Assembly: GCA_028716165.1 (NCBI GenBank)
Contig: JAQUQI010000001.1
Location: 191,832 to 255,831 of the forward strand
DNA: 64,000 nt
Reading direction: 5' to 3'
Source: Candidatus Omnitrophota bacterium
Lineage (GTDB): Bacteria; Omnitrophota; Gorgyraeia; JABMRG01
Shown here: piece after piece, positions 18,781-33,350 of the stretch
Numbering within the stretch: the first letter of the stretch is position 1
How the letters are laid out: every line of letters starts with the position of its first letter
Program-made: the position numbers and the translations under genes
The notes under the pieces: generated by a model
The model's input: only the letters and a program-made list of their open reading frames with translations
The model's database searches: none
What the model was told of the DNA's origin: nothing

Positions 18781-19036
18781 ACGGTTTGCTCAACGATGAT
18801 TTGACGCTTATGCCCGCGATCTTTCCCAATTTACCCGTCAAGGCGCCTAATTCGTCTGTTGTCGCGTCAACAACCAGAGTTATAACATTAAGGCCCTTTT
18901 TGCCGCTGGGCACACCCATTCTCGCTAATATGATATCCCCGTAACCGGAGAGTATCTCATTTACCCTGGGGGCGTTTTTCTTCCTGTCCTCTACTATAAT
19001 ACCAATAAATCCCAGGCGTTTGTCTGTATTTGCCAT
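18749..19036 (-). CDS. Small ACT/NikR-C-like putative iron-only hydrogenase system regulator (TM1266-like), 95 aa.
   Basis: About 90 aa, with an IVEDR...VNEIL...GRMGVP...TGKLG pattern typical of the small protein family found next to hydEFG. Its 3' end overlaps the hydF start. Confidence 0.55.
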   Translation of the reverse strand: MANTDKRLGFIGIIVEDRKKNAPRVNEILSGYGDIILARMGVPSGKKGLNVITLVVDATTDELGALTGKLGKIAGISVKSSLSKPYAGGRDAQDA

Positions 19037-19075: not shown

Positions 19076-19127
19076 CTTTTAAAAAAATAAACCCCAAAAT
19101 TACCAAAAATAAGCGGTAAGTTTGGGG
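19076..19127 (-). terminator. Rho-independent terminator ending the hydrogenase operon, just downstream of hydA1.
   Basis: The minus-strand transcript reads CCCCAAACTTACC-gcttattttt-GGTAATTTTGGGG, a 13-bp stem with one mismatch, followed by the U-tract tttattttttt. Confidence 0.6.
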
Positions 19128-19217: not shown

Positions 19218-20963
19218 TTACTTTCTATAAAGAGGCCTTGGCAGATAATGAGTGTGTAAAAGCTTGTGTGATTTCTCGCTTAACGGTTTTATCAGAAATT
19301 CTTTATACAGTTTGATTATATATGGATTTTCATGCGCGAATCTTAACTTCCTGTCACTGTCATCCTGATACAAGCCCTTGGCCCTTATCACCCTTAACTG
19401 GTCAGTGGCTCCGTAGGGTTGGCCGCCGCCGCCTACACACCCGCCCGGACATGCCATAACTTCTATAAAATCATAAGGTATTTCTTTGCCTTTAGCGGAT
19501 GCTTCATGGACCCTGTCTAATACGCATTCAACATTACCCATGCCATGGGCCACTGCTATCCTGACCCTGGCGCCTTTTATGTCTATCTCGGCCTCCTTTA
19601 CGCCCAGCAATCCTCTTACAGGCGTAAATTCCACCTCTTTTAAGTTTTCGCCTGTCGCGTAAAAATACGCTGTTCTTATGGCAGCCTCCATAACGCCTCC
19701 TGTGGCGCCGAATATCACGCCCGCCCCGGTATAATCGCCGAGCATATGGTCAGGTTCTTCATCGGGGAGGTTTAGGAAATCAATGCCTGCCTGCTTTATC
19801 ATGCGGGCTAATTCTCTTGTCGTGATAGATATATCAACATCCTGCTGGCCTGATGAAAACATTTCCTTGCTTCTGGCAATCTCGTATTTTTTTGACGTGC
19901 ACGGCATTACAGAGACCATGAATATCCTGGATGCCTCAATCTTGTTCTTGTCCGCGTAATAGGTCTTTGCCAAAGCGCCCACCATTTCATGGGGGGATTT
20001 AGCCGACGAAAAATGTTCTATCATATCGGGATAAAACTTTTCCATAAAATCAACCCACGAAGGACAGCATGTGGTAATAAGCGGAAGCGGGCCTTTCTTA
20101 TGGACAAACCTGTTTATAAATTCAGACGCCTCCTCTATTACCGTAAGATCAGCGCCGAAACATGTGTCAAAGACAGCCTTAAACCCCATCCTTCTTAAAG
20201 CAGTGTAGATCTTGCCAGTCAGGTTCTCCCCCGGCCTGCACCCAAAGGCCTCTCCAAGAGCAACGCGGACAGCAGGGGCTATCTGCACCACGGGGTACTT
20301 ATCATTATCATAAAGCGCTTTCCAGACCGCGGGCGTCTGATCGTATTCAGCGATGGCCCCGGTAGGGCAATGGGCGGAGCACTGCCCGCATCTTATACAG
20401 GGGCTTTCTGCCAGTTCTATGTCCCCTGCCGCCGATATCCTGGTGCTGTGGCCTCTTTCCAGAAAAGAAAGGGCCCACACATCCTGCTGTTTCTGGCATA
20501 CTTGGACGCATCTTCCGCACAATATGCATTTTTCAGGCACAAGGGTTATTGTCTTTGTTGAATCGTCATTGGGTATCTGCCGCAAAAACTGGGGAAAAGC
20601 CGATTCTCTTATGCCGAAGTCCGAAGCGAGCTTCTGCAATTCGCAATTATTGTTTCTTGCGCATTTCAGGCAGTCGTTGGGATGGTTGGAGAGTATAAGC
20701 TCTAAGACATTTCTCCTTATGTCCTGCAATTCATCATCATGGGTTATTATGTCCATACCCTCTTCCAGCGGGGTACAGCACGAACGCAGCATCTTATTAC
20801 TGCCTTTTATTTTTACTATACATATGCCGCAGGCCCCTGTGGCATCAAGATCAGGGTGTTTGCAAAGAGACGGTATATTTATCTGTATTTCTTTGGCCGC
20901 GTCAAGTATGCTGGTTCCTTTTTTGACGCTGACCTCAATGTTGTTGATTTTAGCTTTTATCAT
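19218..20963 (-). CDS. hydA: [FeFe]-hydrogenase catalytic subunit HydA, bifurcating group A3 type, 581 aa.
   Basis: N-terminal 2Fe-2S ferredoxin-like domain plus 4Fe-4S domains. H-cluster motifs: L1 TTCCPSW, L2 MPCTSKKYE, L3 EVMACPGGCVGGGGQP. Confidence 0.9.
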   Translation of the reverse strand: MIKAKINNIEVSVKKGTSILDAAKEIQINIPSLCKHPDLDATGACGICIVKIKGSNKMLRSCCTPLEEGMDIITHDDELQDIRRNVLELILSNHPNDCLKCARNNNCELQKLASDFGIRESAFPQFLRQIPNDDSTKTITLVPEKCILCGRCVQVCQKQQDVWALSFLERGHSTRISAAGDIELAESPCIRCGQCSAHCPTGAIAEYDQTPAVWKALYDNDKYPVVQIAPAVRVALGEAFGCRPGENLTGKIYTALRRMGFKAVFDTCFGADLTVIEEASEFINRFVHKKGPLPLITTCCPSWVDFMEKFYPDMIEHFSSAKSPHEMVGALAKTYYADKNKIEASRIFMVSVMPCTSKKYEIARSKEMFSSGQQDVDISITTRELARMIKQAGIDFLNLPDEEPDHMLGDYTGAGVIFGATGGVMEAAIRTAYFYATGENLKEVEFTPVRGLLGVKEAEIDIKGARVRIAVAHGMGNVECVLDRVHEASAKGKEIPYDFIEVMACPGGCVGGGGQPYGATDQLRVIRAKGLYQDDSDRKLRFAHENPYIIKLYKEFLIKPLSEKSHKLLHTHYLPRPLYRK

Positions 20964-20965
20964 AA

Positions 20966-22768
20966 TTACTCCTTAATAACGGCGTCAAATTTGCATACCT
21001 CAAAACACTTTCCGCATTTTACGCACTTGGCCGCGTCTATAGTATAGCCCTGTTTGGAATCGCCGGTTATGGCCTTGACGGGACAATTTTTCGCGCAGAG
21101 CCCGCAGCGCCTGCATTTTTCGGTAATTATGCGATACGTCATAAGTTCGGCGCACTTGCCTGAACGGCATTTTTTAAGCTTTACATGCTCTTCATATTCG
21201 TCTCTGAAAAACCTTAAAGTTGACAATACGGGATTGGGGGCGGTTTGGCCCAGGCCGCAGAGTGAAGCGCGTTTTACAGTATTGCATATTCTTTCAAGCT
21301 TTACGATATCATCCATTGAGGCCCTGCCGGAGGCAATCTTTTTTAGATACTCAAGCATCTGGTATCCGCCTATACGGCAAGGCGCGCACTTCCCGCATGA
21401 TTCATCCACGCAAAAACCCAGATAGAATTTGGCAATATCAACCATGCAATCGGTTTCATCCATGACTATCATTCCGCCCGAGCCCATAATAGAGCCGAGC
21501 TTTTGCAGATTCTCATAATCTACAGGCGTATCAATGTATTCCACGGGTATCACGCCGCCGGAGGGCCCGCCGGTTTGAACAGCCTTGATCTTTTTATCAT
21601 CTATTAACCCGCCGCCTATATCATAAACGATCTCTCTTATCGTTATACCCATGGGGACTTCTATTAGCCCTGAATTCTTGACCTTTCCTGTAAGCGCGAA
21701 TACCTTGGTGCCCTTAGAATTCTGACTGCCTATGGAAGAAAACCACTTGGCCCCTTTCGTGAATATAACAGGCACATTGGCCAATGTCTCCACATTGTTT
21801 ATAACAGTAGGCCTTGACCACAGACCCCTGACAGACGGATAAGGCGGCCTCGGAGTCGGGACGCCGCGCTTGCCTTCAATTGAGGCGATAAGCGCTGTTT
21901 CTTCGCCGCAGACAAAGGCTCCGGCCCCAAGCCGTATCTCAAGTTCAAAGTTGAAATCACTGCCTAATATTCCGTTGCCGACAAGGCCGTATCCTCTGGC
22001 CTGTTCTATCGCATTTTGTATCCGCTTAATGGCCAACGGATATTCGGCCCTTATGTAGAAAAAACCCTTGCTCGCGCCTGTCGCGTAGCCGGCTATAAGC
22101 ATGCCCTCTATTACGGAATGAGGGTCGCCTTCCAATATGCCCCTGTCCATATAAGCCCCGGGGTCTCCTTCGTCGCCATTACATATTACGTATTTTTCAT
22201 CGGCCTCTATGTCCTTGGCAAAATTCCATTTCATCCACGTAGGAAAGCCTCCGCCGCCTCTGCCGCGCAGGCCGCTGTCCTTAAGCTGTTTTAACACATT
22301 GTCCTGGCTTTTGCCCGCTAATACGGCCTTGAGCCCCTGATAACCGTCACGGGCGATATAATCATCTATGCTTTCGGGATCTATGACGCCGCAATTTCTT
22401 AATACGACCTTGAGTTGTTTTCCGGATTTATCTTCATATCTGGCCGAGTCAAAGATTTTTTTACCGCATATATGCTGTTCAATAATACTGCGGGCAACGT
22501 CTTCATTAACATTCCTATAAATCACCGGCCCTGACCAGGCAGTATTAACTTCAACTACAGGCTCCGCGAAACACAAGCCGTTACATCCTGTCTTCTTAAG
22601 ACAAACATCAAGGCCTTTTTCATCTATAAGCTTTTTTATCAGGTCAAAAACGGCCGAAGCGCCCGCGGCGATACCGCATGTGCTCATGCCTACCCTTATG
22701 CACGTCTTGGGTTCTTTCCTGAATTTATTCCTTATCTGGTCAATATCGTTTTTTATGATTTTTGACAT
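20966..22768 (-). CDS. hydB: Hydrogenase flavoprotein subunit HydB (NuoF-like, NADH-binding), 600 aa. Carries an N-terminal thioredoxin-like 2Fe-2S module and C-terminal 2x[4Fe-4S] ferredoxin.
   Basis: GLRGRGGGGFPTWMKW FMN/NADH motifs, a CGKCAPCR cluster, and C-terminal CRRCGLCAKNCP...CVKCGKCFEVC. Confidence 0.85.
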   Translation of the reverse strand: MSKIIKNDIDQIRNKFRKEPKTCIRVGMSTCGIAAGASAVFDLIKKLIDEKGLDVCLKKTGCNGLCFAEPVVEVNTAWSGPVIYRNVNEDVARSIIEQHICGKKIFDSARYEDKSGKQLKVVLRNCGVIDPESIDDYIARDGYQGLKAVLAGKSQDNVLKQLKDSGLRGRGGGGFPTWMKWNFAKDIEADEKYVICNGDEGDPGAYMDRGILEGDPHSVIEGMLIAGYATGASKGFFYIRAEYPLAIKRIQNAIEQARGYGLVGNGILGSDFNFELEIRLGAGAFVCGEETALIASIEGKRGVPTPRPPYPSVRGLWSRPTVINNVETLANVPVIFTKGAKWFSSIGSQNSKGTKVFALTGKVKNSGLIEVPMGITIREIVYDIGGGLIDDKKIKAVQTGGPSGGVIPVEYIDTPVDYENLQKLGSIMGSGGMIVMDETDCMVDIAKFYLGFCVDESCGKCAPCRIGGYQMLEYLKKIASGRASMDDIVKLERICNTVKRASLCGLGQTAPNPVLSTLRFFRDEYEEHVKLKKCRSGKCAELMTYRIITEKCRRCGLCAKNCPVKAITGDSKQGYTIDAAKCVKCGKCFEVCKFDAVIKE

Positions 22769-22780
22769 TTAGTTTGGCCT

Positions 22781-23659
22781 TTATTTTGTTTCCGCGGCGG
22801 ATTCTTTTACGTAGGCGGAGATTATATTCAACACATCTTCTTTCTTTACCTTGCCGTGTATTTTATTATTTATCATTACAACAGGGGCGAGCCCGCAGCA
22901 GCCAAGGCATCTGACTATCTGCAAATGGAATAAACCGTCCTGCGTAGTCTGGCCTTCTTCAATGTCAAGTATGCTCTTAAACTCCTGGAGTATATCGTTG
23001 GCGCCTTTCAGATAGCAGGCGGTACCCATGCACAAGGAAATTGTGTATTTACCCGGCGGGTCAAGCTTAAAATAATTGTAAAAAGTTATAACCTCGTATA
23101 TGCGCGCCAGCGGGACATCAAGCATGCGCGACAATTCAAACGATATTCCTCTTGGGACATACCCATAGTGATTTTGTATTTCATGCAATATCATGACAAG
23201 AGAGCCTTTTTTCCCTTTCCATCTTTCGGCCAGGGTATTTATTTCATCTATTATCTCTCTATGCCTTTTACCCGTCTTGCTAATATGGCCTTCTATCAGC
23301 TTGAGCAGGGCCTCGGGTTTTATGGGCTTTTCAACAATAGCCCTTACCGGAAGATTTTTGGGATCAGGCTTGAGTTCAACCGGGAAATTAATCTCCTTGT
23401 GCGCGCCCGTGATAAGTATTATCGGTATGTTCTTACTGGCGGCATCCTCCGATATGATCTTTGCCGTGTCAAGGCCTTCCGTCTTATAAGACATCATCAT
23501 ATCCAGCAGTATAAGATCAGGCGATTCACTCTTCACCTTCTGCACGCCCTCCGTGCCCTCAAAGGCGTTTATAGTATTATAACCGCTGTTGTTAAGGAGC
23601 ACTGAAATAGCTTCAACAAAATCCTTATCATCATCAATAATCAAAATAGTATTGCGCAT
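22781..23659 (-). CDS. hydC: Fusion protein: N-terminal response-regulator receiver (REC) domain joined to a NuoE-like thioredoxin-like [2Fe-2S] ferredoxin (HydC), 292 aa.
   Basis: REC: ILIIDDD...DLILLDMMM...IILITG...EKPIKPE. NuoE: CMGTACYLKGA...CLGCCGLAPV. This is the first gene of hydC-B-A set 1. Confidence 0.8.
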   Translation of the reverse strand: MRNTILIIDDDKDFVEAISVLLNNSGYNTINAFEGTEGVQKVKSESPDLILLDMMMSYKTEGLDTAKIISEDAASKNIPIILITGAHKEINFPVELKPDPKNLPVRAIVEKPIKPEALLKLIEGHISKTGKRHREIIDEINTLAERWKGKKGSLVMILHEIQNHYGYVPRGISFELSRMLDVPLARIYEVITFYNYFKLDPPGKYTISLCMGTACYLKGANDILQEFKSILDIEEGQTTQDGLFHLQIVRCLGCCGLAPVVMINNKIHGKVKKEDVLNIISAYVKESAAETK

Positions 23660-23662
23660 TTT

Positions 23663-25501
23663 TTAACCTTTTTTTAGCTTAAAAATAAAAGAATTGCCGC
23701 CAGTTTTTGGCTCAACCCATATACTGCCGCCGTGAAGCCGTATGATTTCTCTGGTGATAAAAAGGCCGATGCCCGTCCCCTTGACCTTATCCTCGCCTTC
23801 ATAATGAAGGCGCGAAAACTTTTTGAAAAGCCTGTCCATATCAATAACCGATATGGGTTTGCCTTCATTATACACCTCTATCTCTATATAGCCTTCGGAG
23901 ACCCTTGAGGAAAGGATTATATTTCCATCCCTTTTGCCATATTTTATCGCGTTTGTCAAGAGATTGTTTGCCGCAATACGCAGAAGGCCCGAATCAGCCG
24001 TGACTTTTATATCACCGGCTATATTGTTTTGTATAGTCATTTTCTTATCCTGGGCCTGATGTATAAGCGCCTCAACGGAGGGGTCAAATATTTCCTTTTT
24101 TATAAAAAACTCCGTTTTTCTTAATACCATCTCCTGTTTTTCAATCCTGCTCAAATTGAGAAAATTCTTTACTGTCTGCGTAAGATAATCAAGGTTGCGC
24201 GAAACAGAGTCAAGCGCCTTTGTCTGCGCTTCATTGATAGGCCCGAGTAATTTATTATTGAGCGAATATACATTCAATATTATAGAAGCCAATATGCCCT
24301 TCAGCTCGTGGGACACAAATCCGACGAGATCCAGATAGCTCTTGTTCATCATCTCGCATTCCTGTTTTGAAGACAAAAGGCTTTTTTCCCGTTCCGACAA
24401 TTTTACGGCCATAGCATTAAACGCGCCCGCAAGCCGGTCAAATTCCTTGATTGAACTATTCTCAACAAGCCTGGACGACAGATCTCCTTGCGATATGCGG
24501 CTTGACGCGTCAAGGGCCTTGTATAAAGGGCTCAATATCTTTGAGGCAAGTATATAAGAAGTGAACATCGCCAGAAAAGCCGCTACGGCTATGATGGCCA
24601 AAAACATCAGAAACCGTTCAATCATCAAATCATTAAACGGTTTTTCAAGCATCCCCACATATAATATACCTATGGTATCGCCGGTCAAATTTTTTATTGG
24701 CCTATACGCGGTAAGATACCAATCAGAGACTACAAAGGCCCTGCCGTTCCAATAACCGTCTTTTCGCATGACCTTATCGTATACTTCTTCGGATACCCTT
24801 GTGCCTATAGCGCGTTGGCTTGCAAGGGTCAGGACATTGGTGGTTATCCTGACGTCGTCTTGAAATATCGTAACGGTCCCTACCGGCAGATTATTGTAAA
24901 ATTCATGGCCGAAGACAACGTCTCTTATATTATCCACAAGGGCAAAATCCCTGTTAATTATCCTCCCGGCATAACGTGCCGCCGATACATTTCCGGCCTC
25001 ATCCATTACCGGCATGGCGTATTCTATAGCAAGCGCGCTTTCGGAAAAAAGCTTATCGTCGGGCCTGGCCATGGGCGTATATTCTATCTTGGTTTTTACC
25101 CTGTCAAGCAATACATTGGAGATGGCCTTCAATTCATCGGCTTCTATAATCCGGCTGCCGCCGCAAAGATTACCTTTAAACGCGGCGCGGACAATATCGC
25201 TTTTGACCGCGTCTTTTAAGGATACCGGCACTTCATAGACATAATCAACATCCAATATGCCTTTTACGGATATAAGGCTTTTGGTATCTCGGGTAAGGAT
25301 AAGGGCTGTTTTTATTTTCTCCAATTCATTGTCATATACTATACGGGCGGCCTCTATTTTTTTGGCGACCTCTTTTTGCGCCCGGGCTACAATATCATGC
25401 TGTATAGTATAATAGCCGAGAAAGGCCGTAAGGAGCGCTGTTACAACAATTTGAAGAAACAGCGTGAAAAATATATAAAATTTCAAATTACGGGTTTTCA
25501 T
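23663..25501 (-). CDS. Sensor histidine kinase with two TM helices, a ~280-aa extracytoplasmic Cache-like sensor, HAMP, HisKA and HATPase_c; 612 aa.
   Basis: TM1 at residues ~8-30, TM2 at ~296-320. H-box FVSHELKGIL. G-boxes GTGIGLFITREIIRLHGGSIWVE. Confidence 0.8.
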   Translation of the reverse strand: MKTRNLKFYIFFTLFLQIVVTALLTAFLGYYTIQHDIVARAQKEVAKKIEAARIVYDNELEKIKTALILTRDTKSLISVKGILDVDYVYEVPVSLKDAVKSDIVRAAFKGNLCGGSRIIEADELKAISNVLLDRVKTKIEYTPMARPDDKLFSESALAIEYAMPVMDEAGNVSAARYAGRIINRDFALVDNIRDVVFGHEFYNNLPVGTVTIFQDDVRITTNVLTLASQRAIGTRVSEEVYDKVMRKDGYWNGRAFVVSDWYLTAYRPIKNLTGDTIGILYVGMLEKPFNDLMIERFLMFLAIIAVAAFLAMFTSYILASKILSPLYKALDASSRISQGDLSSRLVENSSIKEFDRLAGAFNAMAVKLSEREKSLLSSKQECEMMNKSYLDLVGFVSHELKGILASIILNVYSLNNKLLGPINEAQTKALDSVSRNLDYLTQTVKNFLNLSRIEKQEMVLRKTEFFIKKEIFDPSVEALIHQAQDKKMTIQNNIAGDIKVTADSGLLRIAANNLLTNAIKYGKRDGNIILSSRVSEGYIEIEVYNEGKPISVIDMDRLFKKFSRLHYEGEDKVKGTGIGLFITREIIRLHGGSIWVEPKTGGNSFIFKLKKG

Positions 25502-25552
25502 AAAACCTTTTCCATTCCCGCCTAAAGTACCGCGCGGTATTGCCAGATAGAT

Positions 25553-25894
25553 TTATCGGCGTATTTTATTAATAGAGTTTACGGCAAGCAGGGCATACGT
25601 CATAACGCTTGCCCCTCCGACAAGAACGGCCACCATGCACGCCTCTATCATTTCATCCTTGGACCAGCCCGCGTCAAGGCAGTGCTTGACAGCCCTGGGT
25701 ATGCAAACAGGGCATTTCTGGCTAACGCCGGCAACCAGGAGTAAAAGCCATTTCATTTTTTGGCTTATCCTTCCTTTTCCGGTCATAGCATTCTTGCTTT
25801 GAATAAAAGCCTCGTATTGCCCGGGCACAGACTTTTTGACATCATTCATAAGCGCCTGGAATTTCTTCAATATATCATCTGATCCATATTTCAT
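25553..25894 (-). CDS. Carboxymuconolactone decarboxylase/AhpD-like family protein. The ORF-track start at 25993 would overlap hydA2, so the internal Met (MKYGSDD) at 25894 is preferred.
   Basis: About 113 aa from the internal start, with a KCPVCIPRAVKH CxxC...H motif like the AhpD core. Confidence 0.5.
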   Translation of the reverse strand: MKYGSDDILKKFQALMNDVKKSVPGQYEAFIQSKNAMTGKGRISQKMKWLLLLVAGVSQKCPVCIPRAVKHCLDAGWSKDEMIEACMVAVLVGGASVMTYALLAVNSINKIRR

Positions 25895-25944
25895 ATCACG
25901 CCTCTTTTTTATATCGGTTGCCGTATTAGATAAAACAGGCCTTA

Positions 25945-27870
25945 TCAACTGCCGGAGCCGGGCCCGCGCTTTGTTTTTTTGACATTTATCCATTTGCCGC
26001 GGGCGGTATAACCTGTATGCAGCAATTTATGGCTAAGATGGCCGCATGGGCCTTCTTTAAAATATTGCTCGTATATTTGTTTGACAACAGGGTTTTCGTG
26101 TGATTTTCTTAATACAAGGCTTTCGTCCTCGGCGTAGATTGCCTTTATACGGGCGCCCCTGATATCAGGGCCTGTGGGTATAGGCTGGCCGCCGCCGCCA
26201 ATGCAACCGCCCGGGCATGCCATTACCTCAATAAAATGATAGTCGTCCAGCTGTCCTTCGCAGAGCATGTCCATGACTTTTTTGGCATTAGCCGTGCCGT
26301 GCGCTACCATAACCTTCAGGGTAACGCCTTCTAAAAACTTCCATTGCTCCAGGGTATCTTTGATAATAATCTGCGCTTTTCTTATTCCTTCCACTCCCCT
26401 TACAGGCATTACGCGTAAATTTTCAAAAGGCGCCTCGCGGCCTGTAACCAGTTCGTAAGCCGTCCTTATGGCAGCCTCCATTACTCCTCCCGTAGCGCCA
26501 AAAACAAGCCCGGCGCCGCTGCCGGTTCCAAGAGGATCGTCAAAATCAGACAGGGGCAAATTCGGCAGGTCTATGCCGCACTCTTTTATCATGCCCGCTA
26601 ATTCACGCGTCGTAAGGGCATAATCCACGTCTTTATACCCTGAACTGTTCATTTCAGGGCGTTGGCATTCAAATTTTTTCGCTGAACACGGCATCAGCGA
26701 AACAGAAACTATATCAGCCGGGTCAATATTATTCCTTTCGGCATACCAGGTCTTGGCTATAGCGCCGAACATCTGCTGAGGGCTTTTGGCTGTTGACAGG
26801 TGGCCTAATCTACCGGGATAAAAATGTTCAATAAATTTTACCCATCCCGGCGAGCAGGATGTTATCTGCGGAAGCCTGACACTCTTGTCTTTGCCGGCAA
26901 TGGCCTTTTTAAGCCTTAAAAGCAGTTCGGTCCCTTCTTCCATTATCGTAAGATCCGCGGTAAAATTGGTATCAAAAACCTTGTCAAAACCTATGCGTTT
27001 TATGGCAGTGTTCAGCTTTTTAGTAACACTTGTACCCGGTTTTAGGCCAAATTCCTCGCCGATAGCAGCCCTGGGGCTCGGCGCCGTCTGGATGATAACA
27101 TGCTTTTTGGCATCTTCAATAGCCTTCCATATTCCTTCAGCAGGGTCTTTGGCCTTTAATGCTCCGGTGGGGCATCTATTGATACACTGGCCGCAGTTAA
27201 TGCAGACTACATCGTTTAAAGGCATATCCATATAGGTGGATATTTTTGTGCCGGCACCCCTGTGCACAGCCTCCAAAGCTCCTACCTCCTGCAAATCAAT
27301 ACATGTCCTGACACAGCGCCGGCAGAGTATGCATTTATTCATATCGCGCTCAACAGCATAGCTTGACTGGTCTTTATCATATCTCGGGGCCTTGATGTGC
27401 CCGAATTTATAAGAAGTAACTCCGTATTCTTTTGCCAATACCTGCAATTCGCAGTTATTGTTACGCGCGCACGAATAACACTCGCCATAATGGTTTCTTA
27501 ACAATAATTGTATTATATTGCGCCGGGCACGGCGAATACGCGGCGAATATGTCCTTATATTTATCGGGCCGAATATGGGATACGAACAGGATGCCTGTAA
27601 AGTCCGCTCATTGTCCACTTCAACAACGCATATCCTGCATACGCCCGCCAGGCAGAGATCATCATGCTGGCAGAGGGTAGGTATCTTTATATTTACCATA
27701 CGCGCGGCCTCAAGTATGGTAGTGCCCATGGCAACCTTTACGGCTATGCCGTCAATATTAACCGTAATGTCGCCCCCAATAGCGTCTTTTTTTATCTCGC
27801 CCGTTTCCTGCCTTCTCTGGCTTACAGGCGCCCTTGATGTCTCACGCGCGAAAGCTTTATTATCAGCCAT
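25945..27870 (-). CDS. hydA: Second [FeFe]-hydrogenase large subunit (HydA2), 641 aa. It has a non-canonical L1 motif TSCSPGW, a 2Fe-2S N-domain and a ~35-aa N-terminal extension.
   Basis: L1 ITSCSPGW, confirmed on the DNA (26842-26862 reverse-complement = ACA TCC TGC TCG CCG GGA TGG). L2 SLMPCSAKKFE, L3 IEVMACPGGCIGGGGQP. N-terminus LCQHDDLCLAGVCRIC. Confidence 0.85.
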   Translation of the reverse strand: MADNKAFARETSRAPVSQRRQETGEIKKDAIGGDITVNIDGIAVKVAMGTTILEAARMVNIKIPTLCQHDDLCLAGVCRICVVEVDNERTLQASCSYPIFGPINIRTYSPRIRRARRNIIQLLLRNHYGECYSCARNNNCELQVLAKEYGVTSYKFGHIKAPRYDKDQSSYAVERDMNKCILCRRCVRTCIDLQEVGALEAVHRGAGTKISTYMDMPLNDVVCINCGQCINRCPTGALKAKDPAEGIWKAIEDAKKHVIIQTAPSPRAAIGEEFGLKPGTSVTKKLNTAIKRIGFDKVFDTNFTADLTIMEEGTELLLRLKKAIAGKDKSVRLPQITSCSPGWVKFIEHFYPGRLGHLSTAKSPQQMFGAIAKTWYAERNNIDPADIVSVSLMPCSAKKFECQRPEMNSSGYKDVDYALTTRELAGMIKECGIDLPNLPLSDFDDPLGTGSGAGLVFGATGGVMEAAIRTAYELVTGREAPFENLRVMPVRGVEGIRKAQIIIKDTLEQWKFLEGVTLKVMVAHGTANAKKVMDMLCEGQLDDYHFIEVMACPGGCIGGGGQPIPTGPDIRGARIKAIYAEDESLVLRKSHENPVVKQIYEQYFKEGPCGHLSHKLLHTGYTARGKWINVKKTKRGPGSGS

Positions 27871-29068
27871 GAAATTCTTTCTCCTTTTCTACCGCCTTTG
27901 ACAGCTTATACTCCCGCTTAAAATGGCCGATCGCGGATATGAAAGGCTTGGGGCACGATTGGCCCAGCCCGCATTTTGAGGCTGTCTGCATAGTCTCGGA
28001 CAAAGACAATAACTCATCCAGATATTTCTTGCTGCAAAGCCCATTTCTTATCATGTTTAAGCCTTCAAGCAGAACGGGAATTCCTTCTCTGCATGGAGTG
28101 CATTGGCCGCATGATTCATCCTTGAAAAATCTCAAGAAATTCTCCACGACTTCAAGCATGCGGCGTTCTTTTGAAAAAACTATAAGAGAGCCTCCTGTTG
28201 AGAAATCCTCAAAACAGACAGCCCTGCTAAAATGCCTTCTGGCGACAATCTCCCCGGAGGCTCCGGCAGAGACCGCCTTAGCGTTTTCTCCGCCAGCAAT
28301 TTTTAATATAGACTTTATATCGGAACCAAACTCTACTTCATAGACGCCCGGCCTTTTGCAATCGCCTGATACGCTTAGTAGTTTTGTCCCTGTTGATTTC
28401 GCTGTGCCGAAACTCTTAAACCAATCGGCGCCTTTTTCCACAATATGAGCAAAATTACTGAATGTCTCAACATTATTCAATACCGTCGGATAACCGTTAT
28501 AGCCCGTATTTACCGGAAAAGGCGGCCTGTTTCTCGGCTCGCCGCGGCAGCCCTCAAGCGATTCTATCAATGCTGTTTCTTCGCCGCACACATAAGCGCC
28601 AGAGCCAAGTTTTATTTCAATATCAAAATCAAAACCCTGCCTGCCCATAATGGACATGCCCAGGGCGTTTTCTTTTCGCATCCCTTCAAGAACGCCTTCA
28701 AGAAAACCCGTAAACGATTTGTATTCGCCGCGAAGGTATAAAAAACCCGTATCAGCGCCGCTTGCAAAAGCGGCAATAGCCATACCCTCAAAGATAAGGC
28801 GCGGATATTCCAAAAGCATTACCCTGTCTTTAAAAGTTCCGGGTTCGCCTTCATCCGCGTTACAGACAACATATTTTTTTTCAGAACGCGCGGCAGATAC
28901 CAGATTAAGCTTTATGCCGGCGGGAAAACCCGCCCCTCCTCTGCCGCGAAGGCCCGAATCCCTTATCCGGCTCAATACACCGGCCCTGCCAAGCTCTATG
29001 GCTTTTTTTAACCCCGCGTACGGAATAATTTCGCTGAAGATGACCGCGCCTTTTCTTTTTTCAGGCAT
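27863..29068 (-). CDS. hydB: NuoF-like flavoprotein subunit (HydB2), short form at 401 aa, lacking the extra N- and C-terminal Fe-S modules.
   Basis: GLRGRGGAGFPAGIKL, YVCGEETALIESLEG, ESCGQCTPCREG. Confidence 0.8.
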   Translation of the reverse strand: MPEKRKGAVIFSEIIPYAGLKKAIELGRAGVLSRIRDSGLRGRGGAGFPAGIKLNLVSAARSEKKYVVCNADEGEPGTFKDRVMLLEYPRLIFEGMAIAAFASGADTGFLYLRGEYKSFTGFLEGVLEGMRKENALGMSIMGRQGFDFDIEIKLGSGAYVCGEETALIESLEGCRGEPRNRPPFPVNTGYNGYPTVLNNVETFSNFAHIVEKGADWFKSFGTAKSTGTKLLSVSGDCKRPGVYEVEFGSDIKSILKIAGGENAKAVSAGASGEIVARRHFSRAVCFEDFSTGGSLIVFSKERRMLEVVENFLRFFKDESCGQCTPCREGIPVLLEGLNMIRNGLCSKKYLDELLSLSETMQTASKCGLGQSCPKPFISAIGHFKREYKLSKAVEKEKEFHG

Positions 29069-29567
29069 AATCTCTCCTTGTTAATGGCTTCTTTGAAAGC
29101 CTGCGGACTATATCTTTGACATCTTTTGGCGTAATATTGCCGACCAGTTCACCGTCTATTAAAGCGGCGGGCGCCTGGTCGCACATGCCTATGCATCCGG
29201 TCTCTTCAAGAACTATATTTTTATATTTACCCGGGCGGCCTTTTTTTATCTTTAAGGCTTTTTCAAACTCCTTTTGTATCTTCCCACTGCCCGCCATTAT
29301 ATTAGGCATACAATTGCTTATCCGTATCGTATGCCTGGCTTTCGGGCCTGACGTAAGAAAGGCGTAGAAGGTTACCACAGAATACACCTCAACAGGGTGT
29401 ATCCCGAACCTGTCGGCCGTCTCCTGCATATCCTTATCCGATATATATCCTTTTTTCTGTTGTATGCCTTGCAATACAGGCAATAATTTTGAGCGCGTTT
29501 CATCACACACGATAATTTCTTTGCCGTCTTTTACCGTCTTTTTTGTTACAGCGCATTGTTTAACCAT
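29061..29567 (-). CDS. hydC: NuoE-like thioredoxin-like ferredoxin subunit (HydC2), 168 aa. The second Cys of the first CxxxxC pair appears replaced (CMPNIM).
   Basis: VYSVVTFYAFL...IRISNCMPNIMAG...ETGCIGMCDQAPA. Overlaps hydB2 by 8 bp. Confidence 0.65.
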   Translation of the reverse strand: MVKQCAVTKKTVKDGKEIIVCDETRSKLLPVLQGIQQKKGYISDKDMQETADRFGIHPVEVYSVVTFYAFLTSGPKARHTIRISNCMPNIMAGSGKIQKEFEKALKIKKGRPGKYKNIVLEETGCIGMCDQAPAALIDGELVGNITPKDVKDIVRRLSKKPLTRRDYA

Positions 29568-29584
29568 AAAACCAGGCCCCCTGT

Positions 29585-29956
29585 TTATTTTCCTGTGATT
29601 GAATTGACCTTATTAATAAGGTCTTCCGGGCTTACAGGTTTTTCAAGAAATCCGGCGCAAGGCAATACTTCATCACAACTGCCATAATCGTATCCGGTAA
29701 CCTTACTTACGCCGCTAAGCATTATTACGGGCGTTGGCAGGCCTTTGGCCTTAAGCCTGGCCGCCAAAGCTATGCCGTCATCAGCCTCCTGCATCATAAT
29801 ATCAAGAAATATAATATCAAAAGCCTCTTTGTCTATTATCAATTCAGCATCCTTTACATTATGGGCCATGGACACGCTATGCCCTTTTGCCTCAAGCACA
29901 GCCTTGCCCGCTTCGGCAAATTCCCTGTCATCATCCACCATTAAAATCCTGGCCAT
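29585..29956 (-). CDS. Stand-alone response-regulator receiver (CheY-like). Preferred start is MARILMVDDD, with a strong SD AGGAGG 7 nt upstream.
   Basis: ILMVDDD...DIIFLDIMM...VIMLSG...LEKPVSPEDL. The ORF-track start at 30013 has no SD. Confidence 0.75.
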   Translation of the reverse strand: MARILMVDDDREFAEAGKAVLEAKGHSVSMAHNVKDAELIIDKEAFDIIFLDIMMQEADDGIALAARLKAKGLPTPVIMLSGVSKVTGYDYGSCDEVLPCAGFLEKPVSPEDLINKVNSITGK

Positions 29957-30083
29957 AATACCCTCCTGATTTTCCACCGAAACGATAAACCCAAAATTTA
30001 TACCCCGTCCCATGTGCCGGAGTTTGAAACCCCGCAGTCAGGATAACTGCCGGCCTTTCCGGCGCGCGATTACAATCACCAAT

Positions 30084-30701
30084 TCAGGCAAAAAAAGTAA
30101 GTGTTTCAAGCGCGCGGGAGAGATCCACATCTTCAACCCTGACACCTTCGGGCACATTAAGTTTTACAGGAGCAAAATTCATTATACAGCGTATGCCTGA
30201 TCCGATTATCTTGTCGGCAACCGCCTGCGCCGCGCGGGCAGGCGTTGTTATTATCGCTATGGATATACGTTTTGCCGCGGCAATATCAGCCATCTTTTCC
30301 ATAGGCTCAATAGTAATACCGGCTATGGTCTTTCCTATTTTTTTCGGGTTTATATCAAATACCGCGACAATATTCAACCCGTCTTTGGCAAAGCCCGGAT
30401 ATATCATTAATGCGGAACCCAATCTGCCGGCACCCGCAATGCATATGTTCCAATCCTGGTCTTTTCTTAATATGGATTCAAGGGCCTTTCTTAACTCATT
30501 GGTATTGTACCCTGCTCCGCTTATGCCAAAGGAGCCGAAAAAACCCAGATCTTTCCTCACCTGGGCATCGCTTAGATTAAGCCTTGCGCCTATAGTAGAT
30601 GACGACACCTTGCCTATATTAAGCTCGGATAAGGCCTTGACTTCTCTTAAGTAAGCGAATAACCTTGATATGGTCCCTGTGGGAATTTTTTTTTCTTTCA
30701 T
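30084..30701 (-). CDS. rex: Redox-sensing transcriptional repressor Rex.
   Basis: N-terminal wHTH (ISRLFAYLREV), Rossmann NADH-binding NICIAGAGRLGSAL, ~205 aa. First gene of the hydrogenase operon. Confidence 0.75.
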   Translation of the reverse strand: MKEKKIPTGTISRLFAYLREVKALSELNIGKVSSSTIGARLNLSDAQVRKDLGFFGSFGISGAGYNTNELRKALESILRKDQDWNICIAGAGRLGSALMIYPGFAKDGLNIVAVFDINPKKIGKTIAGITIEPMEKMADIAAAKRISIAIITTPARAAQAVADKIIGSGIRCIMNFAPVKLNVPEGVRVEDVDLSRALETLTFFA

Positions 30702-30723
30702 AAAGCAATCACTTATCTTAAAT

Positions 30724-30763
30724 CTGTAATTAATTTCACAGATACTGTGCTTTTTTTCACGAA
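30724..30763 (-). promoter_or_regulatory. Two adjacent Rex-box-like palindromes between the -10 and the rex start codon. Minus-strand reads cGTGAAaaaaaGCACag and cTGTGAAattaaTTACAGa.
   Basis: They match the TTGTGAA-N4-TTCACAA consensus at 10-11 of 14 positions, with the GTG/CAC cores and N4 spacing intact. Confidence 0.3.
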
Positions 30764-30772
30764 TAGGTTTTT

Positions 30773-30801
30773 ATATTAACTCATTTTTTAAGCTGTGTCA
30801 A
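30773..30801 (-). promoter_or_regulatory. Sigma70-like promoter for the rex-hydrogenase operon: -35 TTGACA (30801..30796) and -10 TAATAT (30778..30773), 17-nt spacer.
   Basis: Read directly on the minus strand: TTGACAcagcttaaaaaatgagtTAATAT. Confidence 0.4.
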
Positions 30802-32437: not shown

Positions 32438-32670
32438 ATGCCTAATTTACTGCTTATCGCGGCTTTGTCAAAACCTATTATAATATCGCCGTCTATATCC
32501 ACGACAGGCACCCCCATTTGAGAACTTTTTTCAATCATCTCATCCGCCCTAGCAGGGTCTGATGCCACGTCTATATCATCAAAAACTATATTATTCTCTT
32601 TTAAGAATGCCTTAAGCCTCAAACAATGAGGGCAGGTATTAGTGCTGTATACCATTATTTTTTGCGCCAT
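32434..32670 (-). CDS. Glutaredoxin-like small protein (CPHC active site).
   Basis: MVYSTNTCPHCLRLKAFL, 78 aa. Confidence 0.6.
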   Translation of the reverse strand: MAQKIMVYSTNTCPHCLRLKAFLKENNIVFDDIDVASDPARADEMIEKSSQMGVPVVDIDGDIIIGFDKAAISSKLGI

Positions 32671-33160: not shown

Positions 33161-33161
33161 A

Positions 33162-33350
33162 TCAATTCCCCGTTTTTTCCATAGGCTGGCCGCAGCATAC
33201 AAGCTCTCCGCCGCCTACGCTGGTTACTGTAACTTCATTACCGCATATATTGCATACATAGTGTTCGCCGACATTTTCAACCGCCATAACCCCTCCTTTG
33301 GCCGAACGGCCTTTCCAAGATACAATATTATTTTCTAAGCATATCGGCAA
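33162..33350 (-). CDS. Desulforedoxin-like small protein. The start is possibly the internal MAVENV at 33287.
   Basis: YVCNICGNEV...GGELVCCGQPM, the CxxC...CC desulforedoxin signature. Its stop lies 1 nt before the downstream ferritin-like start. Confidence 0.5.
   Translation of the reverse strand: MPICLENNIVSWKGRSAKGGVMAVENVGEHYVCNICGNEVTVTSVGGGELVCCGQPMEKTGN

What the first reader, a model, noticed from the sequence alone, without database searches (positions are those of the whole stretch)
19218..30801. Rex-headed ~11.5 kb operon holding two trimeric [FeFe]-hydrogenases, a Cache histidine kinase and two receiver domains
The minus-strand order is: promoter, Rex boxes, rex, REC, hydC2-hydB2-hydA2, an AhpD-like gene, HK, REC::hydC1, hydB1-hydA1, terminator. 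All junctions are 51 bp or less and several overlap by 4-8 bp, so this is probably one transcript. Rex controlling hydrogenase genes is established in Clostridia and Thermotogae. Here a complete two-component module sits between two HydABC sets, and both receivers lack DNA-binding output domains: one is stand-alone and one is fused to the NuoE-like electron-transfer subunit. That points to phosphorylation-dependent post-translational control of a flavin-based electron-bifurcating hydrogenase by an extracytoplasmic signal, layered on NADH/NAD+ transcriptional control. Known sensory [FeFe]-hydrogenase systems use PAS-HydS with Ser/Thr kinases, not this arrangement.
Basis: partly seen in the sequence, partly recalled or inferred. 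Interest (0 to 1): 0.85.

Follow-up and report, generated by a model that had tools for sequence, protein, structure and literature searches.

The report
Kinase-wired twin [FeFe]-hydrogenase operon
An uncultured Omnitrophota bacterium encodes two NADH-linked hydrogen-producing enzymes in one operon together with a membrane sensor kinase, probably sensing formate, whose only nearby targets are a receiver fused to one enzyme's small electron-transfer subunit and a free receiver encoded next to the other's, which suggests the signal acts on the enzymes rather than on DNA.

Summary
On the minus strand lie a promoter, two degenerate Rex boxes, rex, a 123-aa receiver, hydC2-B2-A2, an AhpD-like gene, a Cache histidine kinase, REC::hydC1, hydB1 and hydA1.

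Corrections:
- The rex-REC gap is 70-127 bp, not 51 bp or less.
- Set 2 has a 401-aa HydB that meets every published marker of non-bifurcating NADH-dependent enzymes. Only set 1 is the bifurcating type.
- The hydrogenase maturation genes (TM1266-family gene, hydF, hydG, hydE) follow directly.

New evidence:
- The REC::HydC fusion forms a family of at least 120 90%-identity clusters, mostly Omnitrophota. The phospho-acceptor Asp is kept in 109/120 and the [2Fe-2S] cysteines in 120/120.
- The kinase lies directly upstream in 19/21 species loci.
- The kinase family sits in [FeFe]-hydrogenase clusters in 5/5 further loci sampled, including a cultured planctomycete. A free receiver is always present.
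- No DNA-binding regulator was detected in the Omnitrophota loci labelled. One distant fused locus carries a sigma-54 regulator.
- The kinase's periplasmic domain matches only formate-bound Cache sensors in the PDB. It keeps their Arg/Thr/Thr/Tyr pocket.

Direct phospho-control of the enzymes is the best reading but is untested. I found no paper describing this arrangement. I rate it a new variant of a known kind.

The parts
30773..30801 (-). sigma-70-like promoter, TTGACA-17 nt-TAATAT
   Evidence: 10 of 12 positions matched. It is a consensus match only.
30745..30762 (-). Candidate Rex box 1, TCGTGAAAAAAAGCACAG. Four mismatches to the consensus.
   Evidence: It starts 11 nt after the -10 element. 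The TCGTGA half-site is also found in boxes of orthologous loci.
30724..30741 (-). Candidate Rex box 2, CTGTGAAATTAATTACAG. Four mismatches to the consensus.
30084..30701 (-). rex, the NADH/NAD+-sensing repressor, 205 aa
   Evidence: PF06971 plus PF02629. (NF003995 scores 241 bits against a cut-off of 126).
29585..29956 (-). Stand-alone receiver REC1, 123 aa from M20. The longest ORF starts at 30013.
   Evidence: It has DD, D57, S87 and K109 and no output domain.
29061..29567 (-). hydC2, NuoE-like [2Fe-2S] subunit, 168 aa
27863..29068 (-). hydB2, a short NuoF-like FMN/NADH subunit of 401 aa, of the non-bifurcating type
   Evidence: It has PGTFKDR, GSGAYVCGEE and AGASG, and lacks the N-terminal 2Fe-2S and C-terminal 2x[4Fe-4S] domains.
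25945..27870 (-). hydA2, [FeFe]-hydrogenase catalytic subunit, 641 aa
   Evidence: The H-cluster motifs are TSCSPGW, MPCSAKKFE and MACPGGC.
25553..25894 (-). CMD/AhpD-like CxxC protein, 113 aa from M34
23663..25501 (-). Sensor histidine kinase, 612 aa. Order: TM1, periplasmic Cache_3-type domain, TM2, HAMP, HisKA (His398), HATPase_c.
22781..23659 (-). REC::hydC1 fusion, 292 aa. Receiver is residues 1-125, a long helix spans 115-147, and the NuoE-like [2Fe-2S] domain runs to residue 290.
20966..22768 (-). hydB1, full-length bifurcating-type NuoF-like subunit, 600 aa
   Evidence: It has PGAYMDR, GAGAFVCGEE and GGPSG, plus both extra Fe-S domains.
19218..20963 (-). hydA1, [FeFe]-hydrogenase catalytic subunit, 581 aa
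   Evidence: The motifs are TTCCPSW, MPCTSKKYE and MACPGGC.
19081..19127 (-). Terminator-like hairpin followed by a U-tract
18749..19036 (-). TM1266-family putative [FeFe]-hydrogenase system regulator (ACT-like), 95 aa
   Evidence: TIGR03959 scores 105 bits against a cut-off of 60.8.
14985..18780 (-). hydF, hydG and hydE, the H-cluster maturases
   Evidence: TIGR03918, TIGR03955 and TIGR03956 all score above their cut-offs.

Best explanation
This is a hydrogen-metabolism operon of a Candidatus Omnitrophota bacterium. I propose three layers of control.

(1) Transcription. Rex, encoded first, probably represses its own promoter when NADH/NAD+ is low. It would act through two weak operators that overlap the transcription start.

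(2) Two different enzymes. HydA1B1C1 is a group-A3, electron-bifurcating-type hydrogenase that uses NADH plus ferredoxin. HydA2B2C2 is the S. wolfei Hyd1ABC type, predicted to couple NADH and H2 without ferredoxin.

(3) A dedicated two-component module. The membrane kinase reads a small periplasmic ligand, most likely formate. It then phosphorylates two receivers that have no DNA-binding output. One is fused through a continuous helix to the N-terminus of HydC1. The other (REC1) is encoded 17 bp upstream of hydC2.

Phosphorylation is proposed to change how the NuoE-like subunit sits on the NuoF/FMN module, or how the complex oligomerises. That would switch or bias electron flow between the bifurcating and the NADH-only hydrogenase according to external formate.

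Shown here: gene content, domain architecture, conservation of catalytic and phospho-acceptor residues, and conserved gene linkage.

Inferred: phosphotransfer, the direct effect on the enzymes, formate as ligand, and a single transcript.
For: Anatomy and domains.

Receivers are phospho-competent:
- In the fusion family D53 is kept in 109/120, K111 in 120/120 and T84 in 112/120. The NuoE cysteines are kept in 120/120.
- All 17 REC1-type sequences (16 from loci plus the window's REC1) and all 9 free RECF-type receivers keep DD/D/T(S)/K.

Linkage:
- The kinase lies directly upstream of REC::hydC in 19/21 species-representative loci.
- The same kinase family, at 47-50% full-length identity, sits in [FeFe]-hydrogenase clusters with a free receiver in 5/5 sampled loci. 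These include Limihaloglobus sulfuriphilus (only REC-hydC-hydB(401 aa)-hydA-HK) and Ca. Velamenicoccus archaeovorus.
- My labelling detected no DNA-binding regulator (no receiver with an output domain) in the Omnitrophota loci, and the Pfam-annotated loci show none.
- There is no other receiver or kinase gene in the window.

Fusion logic:
- Free RECF-type receivers, 41-53% identical to the fused one, occur where HydC is unfused.
- REC1-type receivers always abut hydC2.

Structure:
- The AF2 model has pLDDT 82. The receiver's alpha5 runs on as one helix (115-147) into the NuoE helical bundle.
- The C-terminal half matches HydC/BfuC chains.
- HydC's cluster lies 12 A from HydB cluster B1, near the mobile bridge domains, and is proposed to matter for bifurcation (PMC9499530).

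Enzyme typing: Losey criteria (PMC7311640) applied.

Sensor:
- Two transmembrane segments flank the Cache domain.
- The AF2 model has pLDDT 90.5.
- The top Foldseek hits are formate-bound sCache domains 8py1 and 8py0.
- A profile of the sensor hits only those two PDB sequences.
- R218, T221, T234 and Y266 align with the published formate-binding Arg/Thr/Thr/Tyr and are invariant in the 20-sequence alignment A3.

Rex:
- Rex represses [FeFe]-hydrogenase genes and itself in C. bescii (PMC6391272).
- Strong boxes occur upstream of rex in related loci.
Against: - There are no experimental data for any member.
- In the distant locus L082 the same kind of kinase is followed by a sigma-54 activator as well as REC::NuoE. 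A transcriptional output encoded elsewhere in this genome is therefore possible.
- 11/120 fusion proteins have H, N or E at the acceptor position, and one fused locus (L018) has no kinase within 8 kb. The receiver may therefore also have a phosphorylation-independent role.
- In L015-L017 the kinase is a bare 229-230-aa core with no sensor, so the external signal is not universal.
- Formate is not certain. The pocket-floor Phe of the formate sensors is Tyr here (Y281). One published contact (T105/T100) could not be mapped. The sensor also carries an extra N-terminal module absent from the crystallised domains.
- The Rex boxes here are 4 mismatches from consensus.
- The 127-bp rex-REC gap and a possible internal promoter leave the single-transcript claim open.
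Confidence: 0.5

Rival explanations
1. The output is mainly transcriptional. The kinase's real target is a DNA-binding response regulator (for example an NtrC-type sigma-54 activator) encoded elsewhere in the genome. The two output-less receivers act as phosphate sinks or competitors that shape the response.
For: In L082 a Cache_3-Cache_2 kinase is followed by a REC plus Sigma54_activat protein, a REC-REC protein and then REC::NuoE. JGI labels many of these kinases 'NtrC family'. Phosphate-sink receivers are well known from general knowledge of two-component systems.
Against: My labelling detected no such regulator in any Omnitrophota or Limihaloglobus locus examined, and none is present in the 64-kb window. 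A sink does not need to be fused to an Fe-S subunit, and the fusion is conserved across at least 120 clusters.
Confidence: 0.2
2. The information flows the other way. The redox state of the HydC1 [2Fe-2S] cluster changes the behaviour of the fused receiver, which then feeds back on the kinase as an inhibitor or sink. The hydrogenase would thus report electron pressure to the signalling system.
For: There is a precedent. The single-domain receiver FixT binds an Fe-S cluster and feedback-inhibits the kinase FixL (PMC7078487). The receiver and the Fe-S domain are joined by a continuous helix.
Against: This requires a further, unseen output for the kinase. REC1 has no Fe-S domain yet is equally conserved next to hydC2.
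Confidence: 0.12
3. REC1, encoded directly after rex, acts on Rex. It would modulate DNA binding so that the kinase signal is merged with NADH sensing at the promoter. Only the fused receiver would touch the enzyme.
For: rex and REC1 are 18-25 bp apart in L015 and L017. A rex-REC pair, divergent from hydCBA, is seen in five Fibrobacteres loci.
Against: REC1-type receivers abut hydC, not rex, in Limihaloglobus (which has no rex in the cluster) and in Riflebacteria. The Fibrobacteres receivers are a different type, with 33% identity to RECF and no hit to REC1.
Confidence: 0.08
4. The receiver on HydC1 is a structural or pseudo-receiver domain used for complex assembly, with no signalling role. 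The kinase's position next to it is coincidental.
For: The acceptor Asp is lost in 11/120 family members. The alpha4 region is predicted to be non-helical with low confidence.
Against: The acceptor Asp, the acidic pair, the Thr and the Lys are kept in about 91-100% of members. The kinase is adjacent in 19/21 loci.
Confidence: 0.05

Closest known systems
Electron-bifurcating HydABC (Thermotoga maritima, Acetobacterium woodii, Thermoanaerobacter kivui; group A3)
   Same: HydA1B1C1 has the same three subunits. The H-cluster motifs, the full-length HydB with GGPSG, F367-type and A232/M234-type residues, and the HydC [2Fe-2S] cysteines are all present.
   Different: HydC1 carries an N-terminal receiver domain. 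No solved HydC/BfuC/Nqo2 chain matches that half. A dedicated histidine kinase is encoded immediately upstream.
Non-bifurcating NADH-dependent [FeFe]-hydrogenase (Syntrophomonas wolfei Hyd1ABC, Syntrophus aciditrophicus HydAB; PMC7311640)
   Same: HydB2 has T/K at the 232/234 positions, Y at the 367 position, no GGPSG and no additional Fe-S domains. NuoE is a separate subunit, as in S. wolfei.
   Different: It is preceded by a conserved stand-alone receiver gene and linked to a kinase. Activity has not been measured.
Rex-controlled hydrogenase operons (Caldicellulosiruptor bescii and other Firmicutes and Thermotogae; PMC6391272)
   Same: rex is autoregulated and sits with [FeFe]-hydrogenase structural genes. 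The operator is of the TTGTGAANNNNTTCACAA type. Strong boxes occur in related Omnitrophota loci.
   Different: Here rex is the first gene of the hydrogenase operon, the boxes are degenerate, and a two-component module is embedded in the same operon.
Sensory [FeFe]-hydrogenases (HydS, group C): PAS plus Ser/Thr kinase/phosphatase systems, and group C3 with a histidine-kinase domain (PMC11406978)
   Same: These are signalling proteins encoded beside bifurcating hydrogenase genes. In Riflebacteria a HydS-like::HK fusion precedes a REC-hydC-hydB(short)-hydA unit like set 2.
   Different: The window has no HydS. The sensor is a periplasmic Cache domain, not an H-cluster domain. The target is a receiver on, or next to, the NuoE-like subunit.
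Formate-specific Cache_3-Cache_2 / sCache_3_3 sensor domains (PacF, Atu0526, 8py0, 8py1; PMC11804620)
   Same: The Pfam families are the same. These are the only PDB sequence hits and the top fold hits. The Arg/Thr/Thr/Tyr pocket residues are conserved.
   Different: The domain is attached to a histidine kinase rather than a chemoreceptor. The pocket-floor Phe is Tyr. There is an extra N-terminal alpha/beta module. Binding has not been tested.
Response regulators with non-DNA outputs (CheB, PleD, RssB, CpdR) and the Fe-S-binding receiver FixT (PMC7078487)
   Same: A receiver domain controls an enzyme or partner protein directly. FixT is a precedent for a link between a receiver and an Fe-S cluster.
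   Different: Here the output is the NuoE-like [2Fe-2S] subunit of a flavin-based hydrogenase. The papers I searched describe no such case.

Membership tests
Rex redox-sensing repressor | N-terminal winged-helix DNA-binding domain plus C-terminal Rossmann NAD(H)-binding domain | tested here: met
   PF06971 and PF02629. NCBIfam Rex models score above their cut-offs. GAGRLG motif is present in the sequence.
Rex redox-sensing repressor | Palindromic operator TTGTGAANNNNTTCACAA in the target promoter | tested here: inconclusive
   There is no site with 3 or fewer mismatches. Two 4-mismatch sites lie 21 bp apart just after the -10 element. Orthologous loci have 1-2-mismatch boxes.
Electron-bifurcating HydABC (group A3) | HydA with H-cluster motifs L1, L2 and L3 | tested here: met
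   Both HydA1 and HydA2 have them. NF040763 scores above its cut-off for both.
Electron-bifurcating HydABC (group A3) | HydB with an N-terminal [2Fe-2S] domain and a C-terminal 2x[4Fe-4S] domain, plus A/E232, M234, F367 and GGPSG (T. maritima numbering, PMC7311640) | tested here: met
   This row concerns HydB1 only. It has PGAYMDR, GAGAFVCGEE, GGPSG and Fer4 domains. Positions were assigned by motif context, not by a full alignment to TmHydB.
Electron-bifurcating HydABC (group A3) | The same HydB features, applied to set 2 | tested here: not met
   HydB2 is 401 aa and covers only the NuoF core. It has PGTFKDR, GSGAYVCGEE and AGASG.
Non-bifurcating NADH-dependent [FeFe]-hydrogenase (S. wolfei Hyd1ABC type) | T/S232, K/S/A234, Y367, no GGPSG and fewer Fe-S domains in the beta subunit | tested here: met
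   HydB2. Orthologues are 391-407 aa.
Non-bifurcating NADH-dependent [FeFe]-hydrogenase (S. wolfei Hyd1ABC type) | Ferredoxin-independent NADH/H2 activity | not testable with these tools
   This needs enzymology.
Two-component system | Kinase with an H-box His, HisKA and HATPase_c | tested here: met
   His398 lies in SHELKG and is nearly invariant.
Two-component system | Receiver with an acidic pair, a phospho-acceptor Asp, a Thr/Ser and a Lys | tested here: met
Two-component system | Phosphotransfer between this kinase and these receivers | not testable with these tools
   Only gene adjacency is available.
Formate-binding Cache_3-Cache_2 / sCache_3_3 domains | Pfam family match and an extracytoplasmic position | tested here: met
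   sCache_3_3 at 8.6e-30 and a partial Cache_3-Cache_2 match. The domain is flanked by two transmembrane segments.
Formate-binding Cache_3-Cache_2 / sCache_3_3 domains | PacF R142, T145 and T158, and the H-bonding Tyr (R3 Y167 / R6 Y160) | tested here: met
   These correspond to R218, T221, T234 and Y266, which are invariant in 20/20.
Formate-binding Cache_3-Cache_2 / sCache_3_3 domains | A Phe at the pocket floor (F182/F175) that excludes larger acids | tested here: not met
   The aligned residue is Tyr (Y281), which is invariant in the family.
Formate-binding Cache_3-Cache_2 / sCache_3_3 domains | The Thr contact T105/T100 | tested here: inconclusive
   It lies upstream of the aligned stretch.
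Sensory [FeFe]-hydrogenase (HydS, group C) | An H-cluster domain protein with a PAS or kinase domain in the cluster | tested here: not met
   The window has only two HydA genes, and neither carries a sensory domain.

The most novel reading that the evidence does not exclude
A formate-sensing histidine kinase directly gates two hydrogenases by phosphorylation. It would act on a receiver fused to the NuoE-like subunit of an electron-bifurcating enzyme, and on a free receiver that docks on the same subunit of an NADH-only enzyme. It would thereby decide within seconds whether reducing power leaves through the bifurcating or the NADH-only hydrogenase. This would be the first two-component, post-translational control of a flavin-based electron-bifurcating enzyme. 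Receiver::NuoE fusions also occur next to Hdr/Mvh-like genes, so it may be a general regulatory handle of the Bfu/HydABC enzyme family.
Probability: 0.33. Interest if true: 0.85.

Novelty: new variant of a known kind. Interest (0 to 1): 0.72.

Why it matters
HydABC-type enzymes set the H2, NADH and ferredoxin balance of anaerobic food webs. They are also models for flavin-based electron bifurcation, yet in the papers I searched their described regulation is limited to transcription by Rex and poorly understood sensory hydrogenases.

A receiver domain built into the NuoE-like subunit, with its own kinase, would give a defined and mutable switch (D53) on a bifurcating enzyme. Whether and how bifurcation is gated in vivo would then become testable.

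The probable formate input links the two main interspecies electron carriers, formate and H2, in a phylum with no isolated members (PMC10066038). Some members of that phylum are proposed to depend on external formate for acetogenesis (PMC10066038).

A minimal five-gene version exists in the cultured Limihaloglobus sulfuriphilus, so experiments are feasible.

Tried and rejected
- A strict Rex-consensus search allowing 3 mismatches found nothing at the promoter. Only 4-mismatch sites exist there, so I used comparative evidence instead.
- The consensus terminator scan listed nothing after hydA1. Folding was needed.
- I suspected the TSCSPGW motif of HydA2 (second Cys replaced by Ser) marked an inactive or sensory enzyme. 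I rejected this because A. woodii HydA, in a solved bifurcating complex, has the identical motif.
- The long ORF starts for REC1 (142 aa) and the AhpD-like gene (146 aa, overlapping hydA2) were rejected in favour of M20 and M34 on the basis of orthologue lengths.
- Rfam found no RNA family in the window.
- The ORF-poor first 10.5 kb has no tandem repeats or repeat families. It is one giant open frame.
- Literature searches found no description of a receiver-NuoE/HydC fusion or of this kinase-hydrogenase link. The searches covered receiver or response regulator with HydC/NuoE/[FeFe] hydrogenase, Omnitrophota hydrogenases, and Limihaloglobus.
- The formate contact T105/T100 could not be mapped, because the profile alignment starts later.
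- The library of 50%-identity representatives gave no organism names for the distant fused families.

Full report
**1. What is in the sequence**

The window comes from a Candidatus Omnitrophota genome. The fused protein is 100% identical to an NCBI protein from an Omnitrophica MAG on a 301-kb contig.

On the minus strand the ORF list, Pfam and NCBIfam give the following order:
- A TTGACA-17-TAATAT promoter at 30801-30773.
- rex, 30701-30084.
- A receiver-only gene.
- hydC2, NuoE-like, 29567-29061.
- hydB2, 401 aa, 29068-27863.
- hydA2, 27870-25945.
- A CMD/AhpD-like gene.
- A histidine kinase, 25501-23663, with sCache_3_3, HAMP, HisKA and HATPase_c.
- A 292-aa protein with Response_reg at 5-122 and 2Fe-2S_thioredx at 142-283, 23659-22781.
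- hydB1, 600 aa, 22768-20966.
- hydA1, 20963-19218.

Four details need correction.

1. Orthologue lengths place the receiver start at M20 (29956, 123 aa, behind AGGAGG) and the AhpD-like start at M34 (25894, 113 aa). The rex-REC gap is then 127 bp, or 70 bp for the longest ORF. All other junctions are overlaps of 8 bp or gaps of 2-51 bp.
2. The Rex boxes are weak (section 5).
3. After hydA1 there is a hairpin at the stop codon, and a second hairpin followed by UUUAUUUUUUU at 19127-19081.
4. A TM1266-family gene, hydF, hydG and hydE follow on the same strand down to 14985. The hydrogenase locus therefore extends beyond the stated coordinates.

**2. The two hydrogenases are not equivalent**

HydB1 is a full-length Bfu-type subunit. 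It has an N-terminal [2Fe-2S] domain, the NuoF core and two C-terminal [4Fe-4S] motifs. Its best solved relatives are HydB-type beta subunits of NAD(P)H-linked and electron-bifurcating complexes.

HydB2 aligns only to the NuoF core of those chains, for example residues 140-523 of 7t2r_B.

Losey et al. gave sequence criteria that separate bifurcating from non-bifurcating beta subunits (PMC7311640):
- A/E232 and M234 in bifurcating enzymes, against T/S232 and K/S/A234 in non-bifurcating ones.
- F367 against Y367.
- Presence against absence of GGPSG.

HydB1 reads PGAYMDR, GAGAFVCGEE and GGPSG. HydB2 reads PGTFKDR, GSGAYVCGEE and AGASG. I assigned positions by motif context.

Set 1 is thus the bifurcating type. 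Set 2 is the type of the NADH-only enzymes of S. wolfei and S. aciditrophicus. A comparable short subtype that lacks clusters B3-B5 has been described in Hydrogenedentota and judged non-bifurcating (PMC11406978).

Both HydA proteins keep the H-cluster motifs. HydA2 has an unusual TSCSPGW motif, but A. woodii HydA has the identical motif, so I do not read it as a defect.

**3. The receivers**

Both receivers have the complete CheY signature when aligned to CheY.

The fusion is a conserved family, not a local accident:
- 120 clusters at 90% identity, 52-100% identical to the query, all carry both Pfam domains. Nearly all named ones are Omnitrophota.
- Within them the acceptor Asp is kept in 109/120 (H in 6, N in 3, E in 2).
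- K111 is kept in 120/120, T84 in 112/120, and the four [2Fe-2S] cysteines in 120/120.

At the 50%-identity level there are further, distant fused families of 284-296 aa at 32-34% identity. IMG labels one of them 'NADH:ubiquinone oxidoreductase subunit E/CheY-like'.

The AlphaFold model has mean pLDDT 82. It shows a receiver whose alpha4 region (85-106) is non-helical and of low confidence. Its alpha5 continues as one helix (115-147) into the NuoE helical bundle. The C-terminal half matches HydC/BfuC/Nqo2 chains, and no solved chain covers both halves.

**4. Comparative genomics links the kinase, the receivers and the enzymes**

A scan of one genome per species returned 78 loci. I labelled their ORFs by BLASTP against the window proteins.
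- The full window order recurs in L002, L004, L006 (Ca. Gygaella obscura), L012, L015, L017 and L019.
- A shorter order recurs in six more loci. It runs rex, HK, REC::hydC, (small 2Fe-2S protein), hydB, hydA, free REC, then TM1266 and hydF where the labelling detected them.
- The kinase gene is immediately upstream of the fusion in 19/21 fused loci.

There are two receiver lineages:
- REC1-type receivers always abut hydC2. They are 50-80% identical within Omnitrophota, 60% in Limihaloglobus and about 40% in Riflebacteria.
- RECF-type receivers are either fused to HydC1 or free in the same cluster, at 41-53% identity. REC1 and RECF share only 29%.

The kinase family has 120 listed homologues of at least 46% full-length identity. 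I sampled five more loci:
- Limihaloglobus sulfuriphilus, a cultured planctomycete, has just REC, hydC, hydB (401 aa), hydA and HK.
- Ca. Velamenicoccus archaeovorus and three other Omnitrophota contigs have rex, HK, a 119-121-aa protein, hydB, hydA, an unfused hydC, radical-SAM maturase genes and a free REC of 126-128 aa. hydF is also present in three of the four.

None of these loci, and nothing else in the 64-kb window, encodes a receiver with a DNA-binding output.

Related themes appear in other phyla:
- Riflebacteria have a HydS-like::HK fusion, REC, HK, REC, hydC, short hydB and hydA.
- Chloroflexi have HK, REC, REC, hydA, nuoE and nuoF::gltD.
- Actinomycetota have hydA, nuoE::nuoF, HK, REC and REC.

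Two distant fused loci are instructive. L082 has the same kind of Cache kinase, then a sigma-54 activator, a REC-REC protein, REC::NuoE, NuoF and a HydA-like protein. L081 has REC::NuoE next to Hdr/MvhD-like genes with no H-cluster protein.

**5. Rex**

The protein is a clear Rex.

A search for TTGTGAANNNNTTCACAA allowing 3 mismatches finds nothing at the promoter. Two 4-mismatch sites, TCGTGAAAAAAAGCACAG and CTGTGAAATTAATTACAG, lie 11 and 32 nt after the -10 element. They are the only pair of sites with 4 or fewer mismatches lying 10-40 bp apart among 33 such sites in the window.

Upstream of rex in related loci there are 1-2-mismatch boxes (L008, L011, L014, L021, L044). There is also a conserved TCGTT(A/C)nnAATTTCACGA box right after the -10 element in L006, L012, L015 and L017.

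Rex repression of [FeFe]-hydrogenase genes and of rex itself has been shown experimentally in C. bescii (PMC6391272). Rex control here is likely but rests on weak sites.

**6. The signal**

The kinase has hydrophobic segments at about 8-33 and 296-320 that flank the Cache region, so the sensor faces outward.

The sensor is highly conserved across Omnitrophota and Limihaloglobus. Its AlphaFold model has pLDDT 90.5.
- The best Foldseek hits in the PDB are the formate-bound sCache domains 8py1 and 8py0.
- A profile of residues 170-300 hits only those two PDB sequences, at 1.2e-7 and 4.2e-6.

Monteagudo-Cascales et al. showed that Cache_3-Cache_2 and sCache_3_3 domains of this kind bind formate specifically. 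They named PacF R142, T145 and T158, and in the crystal structures an Arg, a Tyr, a Thr and a pocket-floor Phe, as markers (PMC11804620).

I used the alignment with chain index equal to paper number minus 12 for R3 and minus 8 for R6. This offset reproduces the published Arg, Tyr and Phe. The mapping is:
- The key Arg is HK R218.
- T145 is T221.
- T158 is T234.
- The Tyr is Y266.

All four are invariant in 20/20 homologues. The pocket-floor Phe is Tyr (Y281), and one Thr contact could not be mapped.

Formate is therefore my preferred ligand, at about even odds. In L015-L017 the kinase is only the 229-230-aa catalytic core, and its gene overlaps the stop of the AhpD-like gene. The external input is thus not universal.

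**7. Mechanism proposed, and its status**

Shown:
- The parts.
- Their conservation.
- Their linkage.

Inferred:
- The kinase phosphorylates D53 of REC::HydC1 and the equivalent Asp of REC1.
- The phosphorylated receivers act on the NuoE-like subunits.

In solved HydABC, HydC sits with HydB in the outer lobes. Its cluster is 12 A from HydB cluster B1, near the mobile bridge domains, and is thought to matter for bifurcation (PMC9499530). A receiver rigidly joined to HydC's first helix is well placed to alter that geometry or the oligomer.

The physiological sense would be to partition reducing power between a ferredoxin-coupled and an NADH-only hydrogenase according to external formate. Velamenicoccus-type Omnitrophota are proposed to take up formate for the methyl branch of acetogenesis (PMC10066038).

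The rivals are a transcriptional regulator elsewhere with the receivers as sinks, reverse signalling of the FixT kind (PMC7078487), REC1 acting on Rex, and a purely structural domain. They are listed with their evidence in the rival section.

**8. Novelty and score**

Papers on Omnitrophota and on multimeric hydrogenases mention group A3 enzymes but not this module. Targeted searches found no description of a receiver-HydC/NuoE fusion.

All components belong to known families. The wiring is new: a two-component system whose output is a subunit of a bifurcating hydrogenase, duplicated over two enzyme types, with a probable formate input. I rate it a new variant of a known kind.

Interest is 0.72. 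A specialist would be surprised, and the minimal version in a cultured planctomycete makes it testable. The central claim of direct post-translational control is still inference.

Noticed in passing
window 2-10540 (-): One open reading frame of at least 3513 aa runs off the window start. It has no Pfam hit, lies in DNA with a low-GC stretch (34-43% across 1-10,000) and shows strong AT skew. It looks like one of the giant proteins known from Omnitrophota. The ORF tool does not list it because it is cut by the window edge.
   Followed up: partly
window 26860-26840 (hydA2 residues 337-343): The H-cluster motif L1 reads TSCSPGW, with Ser in place of the second Cys of TSCCP. The A. woodii HydA of the solved bifurcating complex (7q4v) has the same motif.
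   Followed up: partly
window 25553-25894 (-); L015 8949-9979; L017 8950-9979: An AhpD/CMD-like CxxC protein lies between hydA2 and the kinase in 7 of the 8 labelled loci that carry hydA2 and the kinase (not detected in L019), and directly upstream of the kinase in the partial locus L016. In L015-L017 it overlaps the start of a sensor-less kinase core of 229-230 aa. It may be a redox or peroxide input to the kinase, or may protect the hydrogenase from oxygen.
   Followed up: partly
L038, L040-L043, L061, L063 (Riflebacteria): A 664-697-aa HydA-like::histidine-kinase fusion (a sensory hydrogenase with a kinase) is followed by REC, HK, REC, nuoE-like, a short nuoF-like gene (395-396 aa) and hydA. 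The set-2-type unit therefore appears under H2-sensor control in another phylum.
   Followed up: partly
L023, L024, L026, L028, L029 (Fibrobacteres): A rex gene followed by a 125-137-aa receiver gene is transcribed divergently from hydC-hydB-hydA. The HydC there is about 70% identical to the NuoE half of the fusion.
   Followed up: no
L082 2983-12713; L081 8001-16882: These are distant REC::NuoE fusions at 34% identity. In L082 the fusion comes after a Cache_3-Cache_2 kinase, a sigma-54 activator and a REC-REC protein. In L081 it sits next to NuoF, a ferredoxin-like protein and Hdr/MvhD-like genes, with no H-cluster protein.
   Followed up: partly
Fusion family P0001-P0120: 11 of 120 members have His, Asn or Glu at the phospho-acceptor position while keeping K111 and the Fe-S cysteines. 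One fused locus (L018) has no kinase within 8 kb upstream.
   Followed up: partly
window 12762-14988 (-); L083 3655-6912: An SDR/epimerase-like gene and a radical-SAM gene follow hydE with 4-bp and 20-bp overlaps. An epimerase plus radical-SAM pair also follows the hydG- and hydE-like radical-SAM genes in L083. They may be extra maturation or accessory genes.
   Followed up: no
window 31523-32437, 32639-33202, 30860-31507 (-): Immediately upstream of the operon lie a thioredoxin-reductase/AhpF-like flavoprotein, a ferritin-like/rubrerythrin-like protein and an N-glycosylase/DNA lyase. This is an oxidative-stress flavoured neighbourhood beside oxygen-sensitive hydrogenases.
   Followed up: no
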